Of a DNA stretch of 64,000 nucleotides, positions 14,693 to 22,552 are shown in pieces. The translations under genes were made by a program, and so were the position numbers. The DNA is from a virus (lineage: Duplodnaviria > Caudoviricetes), in the IMG/VR virus record IMGVR_UViG_3300031949_000018, positions 16,495 through 80,494 of that record; one strand, given 5' to 3'. The notes below the pieces were generated by a model. That model worked only from the letters and a program-made list of their open reading frames with translations, searched no databases and had not been told where the DNA came from. Every line of letters begins with the position of its first letter. Within the stretch, counting starts at the first letter, position 1.

Positions 14693-15268
14693 TCAAAACC
14701 CGAAGTTCTTTGTGGGGCGCCTGCATTTTACCTGCCATCCTGAGTTGGTGCCCTCCCGCCCGCAAAACTCGAGAGTGGCCTCTGGGTTCTTAAGCACGAT
14801 TCCCTCGTCGAGGACAGACCCGACGTGTTCCAGACTATCGTAGAGCCCGGTGAGATCCTGGGTATGGCACTTGGCCATCGACACCTTGTCGGTCCACGCC
14901 CCGATCTTCGATAGGGCGTCCTGACGGGCGCCGAACGTGGTTCCAACCAGGTCGTCACCGGTCAGACGGAGTACGTCGAACACATAGGCGGTGTCGCGAA
15001 CGTCGCCACCCTTGGAGTGGAGGAGCTCAAAGACAAAGTACGAATCCGGGAACGACGAGAAGAATCCAGATACTTCTGGGTGCGGGGTCCAAGCCTTGTG
15101 TGCCTCCCCCTGACGGTTCCAGTACTCCACTTTCCGGTCCGCGTCGATGGCGACGACCGAGCACGTTCCATTCTTCTTGATCTGGGCAATCCACTCGCGG
15201 CGCTCGTAGAACTTTATTAGGTCCCGGGCGATCGCCTTCTCTGGTCGAGGTGGATATACGAAGTTCAT
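14693..15268 (-). CDS. Stand-alone ATP-dependent ligase-type nucleotidyltransferase domain
   Basis: Motif I IKKNG, WNRQG, FELL, YVFDVL, EGIVLK and WQVKCR; no OB-fold follows. Confidence 0.75.
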   Translation of the reverse strand: MNFVYPPRPEKAIARDLIKFYERREWIAQIKKNGTCSVVAIDADRKVEYWNRQGEAHKAWTPHPEVSGFFSSFPDSYFVFELLHSKGGDVRDTAYVFDVLRLTGDDLVGTTFGARQDALSKIGAWTDKVSMAKCHTQDLTGLYDSLEHVGSVLDEGIVLKNPEATLEFCGREGTNSGWQVKCRRPTKNFGF

Positions 15269-19028: not shown

Positions 19029-19120
19029 TGGCGGAAGAGTGAGGCCTTGATCCCCAGACGTGGTATCAGCACGTCCCAATCGCTTTCGAGGCGATGCCCA
19101 CCCGAGTGAGTTACTCTTCC
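19029..19120 (-). tRNA. tRNA-Ser(CGA)
   Basis: ATCGC-CTCGAAA-GCGAT, long variable arm, G73-CCA; T-loop ATCAAGG. Confidence 0.88.
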
Positions 19121-19175: not shown

Positions 19176-19254
19176 TGGCTCCCGGGCCTGGAGTCGAACC
19201 AAGATCTTCCCTCCTTTCAAGGGGAGGGATGCTCTGGCATTGAGCTACCCAGGA
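19176..19254 (-). tRNA. Atypical tRNA-like gene (7-bp anticodon stem, 8-nt loop CCTTGAAA, no GG in the D-loop); identity unresolved
   Basis: Acceptor TCCTGGG/CCCGGGA, G73-CCA, D-stem GCTC/GAGC, T-loop TTCGACT. Confidence 0.7.
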
Positions 19255-20301: not shown

Positions 20302-20395
20302 TGGCGGAGGAGTGAGGTCTCGATCCCCAGACGTGGTCTTAGCACGTCCCAAACGCTTTCCAGGCGTTGCCGACACCCCGGTCGGTTACTACTCC
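20302..20395 (-). tRNA. tRNA-Ser(GGA)
   Basis: AACGC-CTGGAAA-GCGTT, long variable arm, T-loop ATCGAGA, G73-CCA. Confidence 0.88.
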
Positions 20396-21398: not shown

Positions 21399-21490
21399 TG
21401 GCGGAGAGCTGAGGTCTCGATCCCCAGGCGGGTTTTAACCGCCCCAAGGGTTTAGCAAACCCCGGTCGCACCCCGGCGACTTAACTCTCC
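21399..21490 (-). tRNA. tRNA-Ser(GCT)
   Basis: GGGGT-TTGCTAA-ACCCT, long variable arm, T-loop ATCGAGA, G73-CCA. Confidence 0.88.
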
Positions 21491-21503: not shown

Positions 21504-21532
21504 TATTTATACAGTCTGGTGACGGATGTCAA
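21504..21532 (-). promoter_or_regulatory. Composite promoter for the tRNA block (TTGACA plus overlapping TATAAATA)
   Basis: TTGACA-N15-TATAAATA; a similar TTGACA..GATAAATA lies at about 19265-19292. Confidence 0.55.
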
Positions 21533-21538
21533 ATGGAA

Positions 21539-21619
21539 TGGCGCGCACGACAGGACTCGAACCTGCATCTGCCTCCAATTACCTCACTCAGGCTTCGCAA
21601 GCCTGGGGGTTACGTGCGC
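21539..21619 (-). tRNA. D-armless tRNA-Arg(GCG)-like gene with a 22-nt variable region
   Basis: Acceptor GCGCACG/CGTGCGC, 7-nt linker TAACCCC, CAGGC-TTGCGAA-GCCTG, T-arm GCAGG-TTCGAGT-CCTGT, G73-CCA. Confidence 0.75.
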
Positions 21620-21621
21620 AT

Positions 21622-21704
21622 TGGACCTCCCGACAGGATTCGAACCCGCGTTTTCAGCTCCGTCTACGTATGATGCGTTCGAAGCGCACCTCGGCTACGG
21701 GAGG
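21622..21704 (-). tRNA. D-armless tRNA-Arg(TCG)-like gene with a 23-nt variable region
   Basis: Acceptor CCTCCCG/CGGGAGG, 8-nt linker TAGCCGAG, GTGCG-CTTCGAA-CGCAT, T-arm GCGGG-TTCGAAT-CCTGT, U73-CCA. Confidence 0.75.
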
Positions 21705-22476: not shown

Positions 22477-22552
22477 TGGCGCCCACGACAGGACTCGAAC
22501 CTGCATATAATCGCTTAGAAGGCGACAGCTCATCCGATTGAACCACGTGGGC
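22477..22552 (-). tRNA. tRNA-Arg(TCT)
   Basis: Canonical cloverleaf, GTCGC-CTTCTAA-GCGAT. Confidence 0.93.

What the first reader, a model, noticed from the sequence alone, without database searches (positions are those of the whole stretch)
21539..21704. Tandem D-armless tRNA-Arg-like genes with a D-loop-like motif relocated 3' of the anticodon arm
Seen in sequence: both genes have perfect 7-bp acceptor stems, canonical T-arms, 5-bp anticodon stems and encoded CCA, but only a 7-8-nt linker where the D-arm should be. Each has a 22-23-nt variable region containing a shared TA-xxx-GGAG motif (GTAATTGGAGGC and GTAGACGGAGCT). The GCG gene shares its acceptor and T-arm almost base for base with the canonical tRNA-Arg(TCT) at 22477. 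GCG plus TCG together could read all four CGN codons. Established: D-armless tRNAs are known mainly from mitochondria; G18-G19 docks on the T-loop and A20 is the ArgRS identity element; most bacteria read CGN through TadA-made ICG. Inference: the displaced GGA may restore the elbow and A20 in a rearranged fold, giving TadA-independent tRNA-Arg that resists anticodon nucleases, or these may be decoys.
Basis: partly seen in the sequence, partly recalled or inferred. Interest (0 to 1): 0.8.

Follow-up and report, generated by a model that had tools for sequence, protein, structure and literature searches.

The report
Rewired phage arginine tRNA pair
The two odd genes are almost certainly working arginine tRNAs of a T4-like soil phage whose D-arm is rebuilt from separated pieces around the anticodon arm, a conserved non-cloverleaf design found in many phages that gene finders miss and that I found in no paper.

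Summary
On the minus strand, 21704-21622 (anticodon UCG) and 21619-21539 (GCG) have intact acceptor, anticodon and T arms plus CCA, but no D hairpin.

They are not decayed copies. A covariance model built here scores them 90.6 and 51.5 bits, against 34 bits or less for ordinary tRNAs (one tRNA-Gly reached 40.9). It finds about 90 distinct relatives in viral contigs. Unannotated copies occur in cultured Rhizobium, Xanthomonas and Microbacterium phages. Of 126 gene instances, 125 carry arginine anticodons.

Covariation shows the D-arm is rewired, not absent:
- Bases right after U8-A9 pair with two short segments that flank a D-loop-like bulge, U-A-R-N-Y-G-G-A.
- The anticodon arm sits inside this split stem.
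- Bulge base R15 covaries with the last base before the T stem (A:U 73, G:C 8, one exception), like the canonical Levitt pair. This implies a tRNA-like core.

Most likely they are charged by host ArgRS and read CGN codons; with the canonical tRNA-Arg(UCU) all six arginine codons are covered. Charging, use in translation and the benefit of the rewiring are inferred, not shown.

The UCG+GCG tandem recurs in four other contigs.

This scan reached the same family verdict before on other phage DNA.

The parts
21622..21704 (-). Gene A: rewired tRNA-Arg(UCG), 80 nt plus CCA, the 8-nt-linker 'type 1' form
   Evidence: Sequence. CM R1 scores it 90.6 bits, E 8.5e-25. It is a member of alignment A2, where 98.7% of cells are paired.
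21698..21704 (-). A: acceptor 5' strand, pairs with 21626-21632
   Evidence: 7 Watson-Crick pairs. All 7 acceptor pairs covary across the family.
21694..21697 (-). A: U8 A9 G10 C11, 5' strand of the junction-proximal helix; pairs with GCUG at 21655-21658
   Evidence: Pairs 10:48 (GC 16, AU 5, CG 1) and 11:47 (CG 16, AU 2, UA 2, UG 2) covary. U8-G and A9-U never vary, so that part of the pairing is possible but unproven.
21692..21693 (-). A: C12 G13; pairs with CG at 21667-21668, just 5' of the D-loop-like bulge
   Evidence: Pair 13:37 is GC 19, AU 3. In the larger type-1 set it is GC 27, AU 3, CG 1, UA 1.
21673..21689 (-). A: anticodon arm, loop CUUCGAA, anticodon UCG at 21680-21682
   Evidence: 5 bp, plus G15:C33 as a sixth pair. 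All pairs covary. U33 and A37 are present.
21659..21666 (-). A: D-loop-like 8-nt bulge UAGACGGA (A14, G15, G18, G19, A20 equivalents)
   Evidence: Family consensus is U-A-R-N-Y-G-G-A. G15 here matches C at 21650, following the Levitt-type covariation.
21650..21654 (-). A: 5-nt connector AAAAC (variable-loop equivalent); the last base pairs with R15
   Evidence: Positions 15 and 48 across 82 members: A:U 73, G:C 8, G:G 1.
21633..21649 (-). A: T arm GCGGG-UUCGAAU-CCUGU
   Evidence: covariation.
21539..21619 (-). Gene B: rewired tRNA-Arg(GCG), 78 nt plus CCA, the 7-nt-linker 'type 2' form
   Evidence: CM R1 scores it 51.5 bits, E 1.5e-12. Rfam tRNA scores it 35.5 bits with the D-arm deleted and a 19-nt insert. 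It is a member of alignment A4, where 94.2% of cells are paired.
21606..21609 (-). B: C11 C12 C13 C14. C11 and C12 pair with GG at 21582-21583; C14 pairs with G at 21587
   Evidence: Pair 12:37 is CG 32, GC 3. Pair 14:33 is CG 19, GC 6, AU 2, UA 2. Other members show UG/CA, CU/AG and GC/GC at 11-12.
21589..21605 (-). B: anticodon arm, loop UUGCGAA, anticodon GCG at 21596-21598
   Evidence: The stem differs from the L257 and L094 orthologues by compensated changes.
21574..21581 (-). B: D-loop-like bulge UAAUUGGA
   Evidence: A15 here matches U at 21567.
21567..21573 (-). B: connector GGCAGAU. In this gene A10 and the first connector base G do not pair
   Evidence: Pair 10:47 forms in only 58% of type-2 members.
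21550..21566 (-). B: T arm, identical to that of the canonical tRNA-Arg(UCU) at 22477-22552
22477..22552 (-). Canonical cloverleaf tRNA-Arg(UCU) of the same array, which completes arginine decoding
   Evidence: ARAGORN and Rfam, 57.1 bits. CM R1 scores it only 28.8 bits.

Best explanation
Genes A and B are functional elongator tRNAs for arginine (anticodons UCG and GCG) of an uncultured T4-like phage. They belong to a widespread phage family with a rewired core.

Shown by covariation:
- The bases after U8-A9 form a short helix with two separated 3' segments.
- Those segments bracket an 8-nt D-loop-like bulge, U-A14-R15-N-Y-G18-G19-A20.
- The anticodon arm is nested inside this split helix, where the D-loop would normally be.
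- R15 covaries with the last base of a 5-7-nt connector before the T arm, as the Levitt pair 15:48 does.

Inferred:
- The bulge docks on the T-loop and rebuilds a tRNA-like elbow and core.
- The inner helix plus anticodon stem gives a composite arm of about ten stacked layers, which would keep the normal elbow-to-anticodon distance.
- In effect the D/anticodon domain is circularly permuted.
- The transcripts are cut out of the polycistronic array Ala(CGC) - A - B.
- Host ArgRS charges them through C35 and the retained A20.
- They read CGA/CGG (UCG) and CGC/CGU (GCG) during infection, next to the canonical tRNA-Arg(UCU) for AGR.

Not established: why the rewired body is kept. My best guess is that it changes recognition by some factor that reads the canonical D-arm, such as a host tRNA-directed nuclease, turnover or a modification enzyme. 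Neutral persistence of a working variant is equally possible.
For: Family and conservation:
- A pattern scan of viral contigs gave 105 stretches.
- CM R1 separates family members (41-97 bits) from canonical tRNAs (34 bits or less, with one tRNA-Gly at 40.9).
- There are 92 distinct sequences.

Structure:
- Type-1 alignment A2: 98.7% of cells paired, 21 pairs with double changes, 0 of 500 shuffles as good, slid controls below 45%.
- Type-2 alignment A4: 94.2% paired, 0 of 500 shuffles as good.
- New helices covary: 10:y2, 11:y1, 13:x1, 12:x1, 14:var2.
- A mutual-information scan ranks these pairs and 15:48 at the top.
- Levitt-type pair: A:U 73, G:C 8, one exception.

Arginine identity:
- 125 of 126 instances carry ACG, UCU, UCG, CCU or GCG.
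- The one exception (CUU) has also lost the A after GG and has stem mismatches.

Translation role:
- Anticodon loops are the canonical 7 nt with U33 and A37.
- Most members (71 of the 82 tabulated) have CCA encoded.
- Only 8 of 126 have a canonical tRNA with the same anticodon in the same locus.
- Window codon use includes all CGN codons (CGC 24% of Arg codons).
- No other CGN-reading tRNA was found on the 80-kb contig.

This lineage:
- The same UCG+GCG tandem occurs in L003, L094, L097 and L257, with compensated stem changes.

Isolates:
- Unannotated members occur in Rhizobium phage RHph_I1_18, Xanthomonas phage XacN1 and Microbacterium phage Zooman.

Plausibility:
- E. coli aminoacylation, EF-Tu and ribosome accept a D-arm-less tRNA without adaptation (PMC11551756).
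Against: - There are no expression, processing, aminoacylation or decoding data for any member.
- Single-sequence folding does not prefer the proposed fold. A: -24.6 against an MFE of -27.8 kcal/mol. B: -24.8 against -29.9. Z-scores are near zero.
- The U8-G and A9-U pairs are invariant and so unproven.
- In gene B the junction-proximal helix is essentially absent (A10 opposite G). In type 2 generally it forms in only 58% of members.
- The 3D arrangement is reasoned from connectivity only.
- The invariance of GUA and GGA is partly imposed by my search pattern. Only 16 members were found independently of it.
- Most relatives of this phage (about 75 of 80 loci anchored on the neighbouring RNase H-like gene) carry no member within 6 kb, so the genes are dispensable for the group.
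Confidence: 0.8

Rival explanations
1. Decaying pseudo-tRNAs: remnants of tRNA-Arg genes that lost the D-arm through deletion or rearrangement and are no longer used.
For: Gene finders reject or mislabel them. Single-sequence folding z-scores are unremarkable. One relative (L121:11003-11080) does look decayed.
Against: About 90 distinct sequences keep every helix through compensatory changes, and no shuffle matches the observed pairing. Anticodons are restricted to arginine. The same tandem module is conserved across divergent phages. The family occurs in phages of Proteobacteria and Actinobacteria.
Confidence: 0.02
2. tRNA-like decoys or regulators: processed, tRNA-shaped RNAs that are not used for decoding. 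They would instead soak up a host tRNA-Arg-directed nuclease, toxin or modification enzyme, or sense ArgRS or arginine status.
For: The unusual body could serve a binding role. Phage tRNAs have been proposed to counter tRNA-targeting defences (PMC10264068, abstract seen). Nothing here measures decoding.
Against: A decoy need not keep five different arginine anticodons distributed in a complementary way among arrays: only 8 of 126 duplicate a canonical copy. It also need not keep encoded CCA, U33/A37 loops and an A20-type ArgRS element. In this contig A and B are the only CGN readers found.
Confidence: 0.08
3. Functional tRNAs whose rewired body specifically escapes an arginine-tRNA-targeting defence, or the phage's own shut-off of host tRNA. 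The phage would then keep a private CGN/AGR decoding channel. This is an adaptive version of the best explanation.
For: The restriction of the rewiring to one amino acid across many unrelated phages suggests an arginine-specific pressure. The family coexists with canonical tRNA-Arg of other anticodons in the same arrays. Zooman carries an RtcB-like RNA ligase near its array.
Against: The anticodon stem-loops are canonical (CUACGAA, CUUCGAA, CUUCUAA). Nucleases that read the anticodon loop should therefore still cut. From memory, colicin D cuts tRNA-Arg in the anticodon loop. No nuclease gene was found linked to the genes. A single origin followed by anticodon switching within the C35 family would also explain the restriction to arginine.
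Confidence: 0.2
4. tRNAs charged with an amino acid other than arginine, that is, recoding of CGN or AGR codons.
For: The non-standard body could alter synthetase recognition. The discriminator base varies (U 35, G 22, A 14).
Against: C35 and the A after G18-G19 match the main ArgRS identity elements known from E. coli (established knowledge). The only member without that A also lacks C35. Arginine codons in the window's genes show ordinary usage.
Confidence: 0.02

Closest known systems
Canonical bacterial and phage tRNA-Arg (class I cloverleaf, Rfam RF00005), for example this phage's own tRNA-Arg(UCU) at 22477-22552
   Same: 7-bp acceptor, T arm (identical to gene B's), 5-bp anticodon stem with a 7-nt loop, C35, a G18-G19-A20-type D-loop sequence, a 5-nt variable-loop-like connector with an R15:Y48 pair, and CCA.
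   Different: There is no D hairpin between positions 9 and 26. The anticodon arm lies inside a D-stem-like helix whose 3' strand is split by the D-loop-like bulge. The order of D-loop and anticodon arm along the chain is inverted.
Metazoan mitochondrial D-armless tRNA-Ser(AGY) and the engineered E. coli 'mini HisT' (PMC9427863, PMC11551756)
   Same: A short linker joins the acceptor and anticodon stems. The cloverleaf cannot form. They show that translation can use such RNAs.
   Different: Those RNAs truly lack D-loop and D-stem elements and, according to the papers, adopt a Y shape without the D/T-loop contact. The phage RNAs keep a D-loop-like element, rebuilt stem pairs and a Levitt-type covarying pair.
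tRNA-Sec and allo-tRNAs with 8/4 or 9/3 acceptor/T configurations (PMC5389517)
   Same: Natural, conserved departures from the standard tRNA layout that were found in genomes and metagenomes and missed by standard finders.
   Different: Those change helix lengths but keep the cloverleaf topology. Here the topology itself changes while the 7/5 acceptor/T configuration is standard.
Circularly permuted tRNA genes of the red alga Cyanidioschyzon (from memory: Soma et al., Science 2007)
   Same: The usual order of tRNA segments along the gene is rearranged.
   Different: In the alga the 3' half precedes the 5' half and processing restores a normal cloverleaf. Here the acceptor strands are in normal order with a terminal CCA. 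No processing that I can see would give a cloverleaf, so the permutation concerns the mature D/anticodon domain.
Viral tRNA-like structures such as the tymovirus TLS (Rfam RF00233; from memory)
   Same: A tRNA-like shape reached through non-standard connectivity.
   Different: Those are 3'-UTR elements with a pseudoknotted acceptor. The phage RNAs are discrete genes in tRNA arrays with ordinary acceptor stems. The RF00233 match in the searched stretch (22.1 bits, gathering score 40, on the neighbouring tRNA-Ala) is noise.

Membership tests
Canonical cloverleaf tRNA (Rfam RF00005) | 7-bp acceptor stem with discriminator and 3' CCA | tested here: met
Canonical cloverleaf tRNA (Rfam RF00005) | T arm: 5-bp stem and a UUCRANY loop | tested here: met
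   UUCGAAU in A and UUCGAGU in B.
Canonical cloverleaf tRNA (Rfam RF00005) | Anticodon arm: 5-bp stem and a 7-nt loop with U33 and R37 | tested here: met
   CUUCGAA and UUGCGAA; the stem covaries.
Canonical cloverleaf tRNA (Rfam RF00005) | D-arm hairpin (stem 10-13:22-25 closing the D-loop) between position 9 and the anticodon arm | tested here: not met
   Only 7-8 nt lie between the acceptor and anticodon stems. Rfam aligns B with the D-arm deleted.
Canonical cloverleaf tRNA (Rfam RF00005) | Score at or above Rfam's gathering threshold (29 bits) | tested here: inconclusive
   B scores 35.5 bits. A is not reported even at E up to 10.
tRNA-Arg identity (bacterial ArgRS substrates) | Arginine anticodon with C35 | tested here: met
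   UCG and GCG here; 125 of 126 family instances carry arginine anticodons.
tRNA-Arg identity (bacterial ArgRS substrates) | A20 in the D-loop, next to G18-G19 (identity element known from E. coli; established knowledge) | tested here: met
   The GGA is present but displaced 3' of the anticodon arm. It is kept in 15 of 16 members found independently of the pattern. The exception has a Lys anticodon.
tRNA-Arg identity (bacterial ArgRS substrates) | Aminoacylation with arginine | not testable with these tools
   This needs ArgRS assays or charged-tRNA sequencing.
Rewired phage tRNA-Arg family (defined here by CM R1) | Score well above canonical tRNAs with the family covariance model | tested here: met
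   A scores 90.6 bits (it was in the seed alignment). B scores 51.5 bits (not in the seed). Canonical tRNAs score 34 bits or less, with one Gly at 40.9.
Rewired phage tRNA-Arg family (defined here by CM R1) | Linker bases pair with the segments on both sides of a UA-nnn-GGA bulge, and R15 pairs with the last connector base | tested here: met
   A: 8-11 with GCUG, 12-13 with CG, G15:C48. B: 11-12 with GG, C14:G, A15:U48, but no 10:y1 pair.
Mitochondrial-type D-armless tRNA | D-arm replaced by a short unpaired loop, with no D-loop element | tested here: not met
   A D-loop-like bulge and rebuilt stem pairs are present and covary.
Class II tRNA (long variable arm) | The long variable region forms its own hairpin | tested here: not met
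   The 22-23-nt regions are not self-complementary. Their bases pair with the 5' linker instead.
Circularly permuted tRNA gene (algal type) | The 3' half is encoded upstream of the 5' half | tested here: not met
   The acceptor 5' strand comes first, and the acceptor 3' strand plus CCA comes last.

The most novel reading that the evidence does not exclude
These are natural cytosolic elongator tRNAs with a circularly permuted D/anticodon domain that still builds an L-shaped core. They would be the first conserved non-cloverleaf tRNA class working on bacterial ribosomes. Phages would keep them because the altered body makes arginine decoding independent of a host factor that acts on canonical tRNA-Arg, such as a defence nuclease, turnover or a modification enzyme.
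Probability: 0.2. Interest if true: 0.92.

Novelty: new variant of a known kind. Interest (0 to 1): 0.85.

Why it matters
[quoted passage not shown] A conserved, covarying, arginine-specific tRNA class with a different strand topology would contradict that statement.

Consequences if it holds:
- Phage tRNA inventories are systematically undercounted. ARAGORN called 7 of 126 instances and mislabelled 5 of them. GenBank records of the three cultured phages I inspected leave the genes blank.
- It offers a natural test of which features ArgRS, RNase P, EF-Tu and the ribosome really need.
- It may offer a new scaffold for orthogonal tRNAs.

Carriers exist in culture (Rhizobium, Xanthomonas, Stenotrophomonas and Microbacterium phages), so the question can be tested directly.

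Tried and rejected
- ARAGORN's reading of A as tRNA-Met(CAU) was rejected. The CAU lies in a linker that varies freely among relatives (CAUACG, UAAACG, UAUCCG).
- A long variable arm (class II) was rejected because the region is not self-complementary.
- A simple extended anticodon stem, as in RNAfold's MFE for B, is only partly right. The covarying pairs are 11-12 with x and 14 with var2, not the full MFE helix.
- Tertiary signals other than 15:48 were sought by mutual information. Nothing rose above lineage noise.
- A third family copy on the contig (C1:4910-4980, 40.9 bits) turned out to be a canonical tRNA-Gly(UCC).
- BLAST of the 1.4-kb array and of a type-1 member against cultured phages gave no family hit. 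A type-2 ACG member did.
- Native cellular copies were sought in one genome per prokaryote species. Of 113 pattern matches, about 18 are true members. Of the 15 I inspected, 11 lie in arrays of 12-27 tRNA genes on MAG contigs, which is typical of large phages that have been mis-binned. Four sit beside only 1-3 tRNA genes. Pfam on ORFs of L256 and L216 was uninformative, so native cellular copies are not excluded.
- No sigma-70-type promoter was found on the coding strand.
- Eight literature searches and two full-text look-ups found no description of this family.
Full report
**Setting.** The window is part of an 80.5-kb IMG/VR virus record, estimated about 49% complete.
- Its genes run almost entirely on the minus strand.
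- They include T4-type functions (UvsW-like helicase, SMC/Rad50-like ATPase, lysozyme), a peptide deformylase, a short RF-1-domain protein and an RNase H-like protein.
- The T4 late-promoter word TATAAATA occurs six times against 0.32 expected, always on the minus strand.
- Between about 18.9 and 22.6 kb lies a tRNA array on that strand.

**The observation.**
- Each has a perfect 7-bp acceptor stem, a T arm with a UUCGA loop, a 5-bp anticodon stem and a 7-nt loop with U33 and A37. The anticodons are UCG and GCG.
- Each ends in a discriminator base plus CCA.
- Only 8 nt (A) or 7 nt (B) stand where the D-arm should be, and a 23- or 22-nt stretch precedes the T arm.
- A begins 4 nt after tRNA-Ala(CGC), and B begins 2 nt after A.
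- Gene B's T arm is identical to that of the canonical tRNA-Arg(UCU) at 22477-22552. Its acceptor differs by one compensated base pair.
- A strict descriptor for this layout matches nothing else in the window.
- ARAGORN calls A a tRNA-Met and misses B. Rfam reports B at 35.5 bits with the D-arm deleted and does not report A.

**A large family, not chance or decay.**
- Loci anchored on the neighbouring RNase H-like gene gave 80 related phage contigs. Only two of them (L003, L020) carry the same layout within 6 kb.
- A DNA pattern built from the T arm and the GUA-nnn-GGA motif matched 105 stretches of viral contigs.
- A covariance model (R1) built from 22 equal-length members scores family members at 41-97 bits and canonical tRNAs at 34 bits or less. 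The one overlap is a tRNA-Gly at 40.9 bits.
- There are 92 distinct sequences.
- Of 126 gene instances, 125 have arginine anticodons: ACG 51, UCU 43, UCG 15, CCU 7, GCG 5, plus four that a quick parser mis-read and I checked by eye.
- The anticodon was not part of any search pattern.
- The single exception (L121:11003-11080) reads CUU. It has GGU in place of GGA and a mismatch in each of two stems, so it looks like a decaying copy or an identity switch.

**The structure.** Two length classes exist. Gene A belongs to type 1 (8-nt linker) and gene B to type 2 (7-nt linker).

Type 1 (alignment A2):
- 98.7% of cells form standard pairs, and 21 of 25 pairs show double changes.
- No shuffle out of 500 reaches the observed values, and sliding the partners drops pairing below 45%.
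- Positions 10 and 11 pair with the two bases immediately 3' of GGA (GC/AU/CG and CG/AU/UA/UG).
- Positions 12 and 13 pair with the two bases immediately 5' of the UA (pair 13:37 is GC or AU).
- Position 15 extends the anticodon stem.
- U8 and A9 face an invariant U-G. They could add two pairs, but because nothing varies this is unproven.

Type 2 (alignment A4):
- Positions 11-12 pair with the two bases 5' of the bulge. The combinations seen are CC/GG, CG/CG, CU/AG, UG/CA, CA/UG and GC/GC.
- Position 14 pairs with the second base after the anticodon stem (CG, GC, AU, UA).
- Position 10 pairs with the first base after GGA in only 58% of members, and not in gene B.

So the D-arm is not missing. 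Its stem is rebuilt from the 5' linker and two 3' segments. These segments bracket an 8-nt (sometimes 7-nt) bulge, U-A-R-N-Y-G-G-A, and the anticodon arm is nested inside.

**A tertiary signal.**
- The third bulge base (R15 by analogy) covaries with the last base before the T stem: A with U 73 times, G with C 8 times, one G:G. One G:U case appears in a MAG-borne copy.
- Neither position was fixed by the search pattern.
- This is the signature of the Levitt pair 15:48 of ordinary tRNAs. It is among the top mutual-information signals once the helices are set aside.
- Together with the UA...GG...A spacing, it argues that the bulge plays the D-loop's part in a tRNA-like core.
- Caveat: the invariance of GUA and GGA is partly imposed by my pattern. 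Among 16 members found independently of it (extra copies in fetched loci, cultured phages, one MAG contig), 15 keep GGA. The exception is the CUU copy.

**How the strands could be arranged (inference).**
- Canonical order: D 5' strand, D-loop, D 3' strand, anticodon arm, variable loop.
- Order here: D 5' strand, anticodon arm, half of the D 3' strand, D-loop, the other half, variable-like connector.
- The inner pairs, the small internal loop and the anticodon stem make about ten stacked layers. That equals the D-stem plus base 26 plus the anticodon stem in a normal tRNA.
- The strand that rises from this arm runs straight into U-A14-R15...G18-G19, with the same polarity as canonical 10-13 into 14-19.
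- I therefore read the molecule as a circular permutation of the D/anticodon domain. The normal ends (10 and 43) are joined. New ends open next to A21/22 and are held by a short clamp helix.
- That clamp is strong in type 1 and weak or absent in type 2, including gene B.
- Single-sequence thermodynamics neither supports nor excludes this fold. The proposed folds lie 3-5 kcal/mol above the MFE.

**Function.** The evidence points to decoding rather than decoy or debris:
- Anticodon loops are canonical. ACG members carry CUACGAA, which from memory is the loop of E. coli tRNA-Arg(ICG).
- CCA is encoded.
- The A that follows G18-G19 corresponds to A20, which with C35 is the main ArgRS identity element known from E. 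coli.
- Members occupy isoacceptor slots that canonical genes in the same locus mostly leave empty; only 8 of 126 are duplicated.
- Canonical tRNA-Arg genes of other anticodons often sit beside them.

In this contig the tRNA-Arg set is canonical UCU plus rewired UCG and GCG, with no ACG or CCG gene. The window's genes use all six arginine codons: AGG 29%, CGC 24%, AGA 15%, CGG 13%, CGA 11.5%, CGU 8%.

The phage's tRNA set is generally rich in G34 and C34 anticodons (Ala GGC/CGC, Leu GAG/CAG, Ser GGA/GCU/CGA). This matches its C-ending codon bias. GCG is therefore explained at least as well by codon matching as by independence from TadA.

The UCG+GCG tandem is a recurrent module: window, L003, L094, L097 and a 160-kb contig binned with an actinobacterial MAG (L257). 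L257 shares the local gene order Arg(UCU) ... Ala(CGC) - UCG - GCG. Its GCG copy differs from gene B by compensated anticodon-stem changes.

**Distribution.**
- Type-2 ACG members lie unannotated in Rhizobium phage RHph_I1_18, where a locus tag is skipped at that very spot, in Xanthomonas phage XacN1 and in Microbacterium phage Zooman.
- BLAST matches also occur in Stenotrophomonas phages CM1 and RAS14 and in Xanthomonas phage Xoo-sp13.
- In one genome per prokaryote species, 113 pattern matches contained about 18 true members.
- Of the 15 loci I inspected, 11 are arrays of 12-27 tRNA genes on MAG contigs, so they are probably large phages binned with cells. Four loci sit beside only 1-3 tRNA genes and remain unresolved.

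**Literature and earlier notes.**
- Eight full-text searches and two look-ups found no description.
- A 2024 NAR paper states that all known bacterial tRNAs are cloverleaves. It also shows that E. coli's machinery accepts a D-arm-less tRNA, limited by PNPase (PMC11551756).
- This scan's notebook holds at least eight earlier follow-ups on other phage DNA that reached the same 'rewired phage tRNA-Arg' verdict. I reached the structure independently before reading them, and every claim above rests on my own calls.

**Verdict.**
- Shown: conservation, arginine specificity, the rewired secondary structure and the 15:48-type covariation.
- Inferred: charging by ArgRS, use on the ribosome, the 3D arrangement and any selective advantage.

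Noticed in passing
window 19029-19120 (-): A 92-nt Ser-like tRNA gene (anticodon CGA, long variable arm, T-loop AUCAAGG, CCA) that ARAGORN and Rfam both miss. Its siblings at 20302-20395 (GGA) and 21399-21490 (GCU) have the T-loop AUCGAGA, with A where T54 normally is. The GCU copy hits the tRNA-Sec model weakly (33.6 bits).
   Followed up: no
window 19176-19254 (-): A tRNA-like gene with a 7-bp anticodon stem and an 8-nt loop CCUUGAAA. ARAGORN calls it Ser(UGA), and Rfam aligns it with an insertion in the anticodon loop.
   Followed up: no
window 21504-21511 (-) and five other sites: TATAAATA, the T4 late-promoter consensus, occurs 6 times against 0.32 expected, always on the coding (minus) strand. 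One copy lies between gene B and tRNA-Ser(GCU), so A and B must be transcribed from further upstream.
   Followed up: partly
L304:4736-4814 and L304:5035-5113 (-) (same contig, outside the window): Two 79-nt tRNA-Leu-like genes (CAG and GAG, A73) with only a 5-nt variable loop and a D-loop of about 13 nt. They have leucine anticodons but lack the long variable arm expected of tRNA-Leu.
   Followed up: no
L121:11003-11080 (-): The only family member with a non-arginine anticodon (CUU, Lys). It has also lost the A after GG (GGU) and has one mismatch each in the acceptor and anticodon stems. It is either a decaying copy or an identity switch.
   Followed up: partly
L187:2498-2575 (Rhizobium phage RHph_I1_18, MN988519.1 about 15122-15199): An unannotated rewired tRNA-Arg(ACG) lies exactly where locus tag EVB91_035 is skipped between tRNA-Ile and tRNA-Phe. 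This suggests a call that was made and then dropped during annotation.
   Followed up: partly
L189:4234-5058 (Microbacterium phage Zooman): An ADP-ribosyltransferase and an RtcB-like RNA ligase gene lie 1.7-2.4 kb downstream of the tRNA-Arg block that holds the unannotated rewired copy (L189:2494-2569).
   Followed up: no
L228, L237, L240, L247, L205 (MAG-binned arrays): The canonical tRNA-Arg genes next to the rewired ones have unusually long D-loops (11-14 nt; anticodon at position 37-39 in ARAGORN's count).
   Followed up: no
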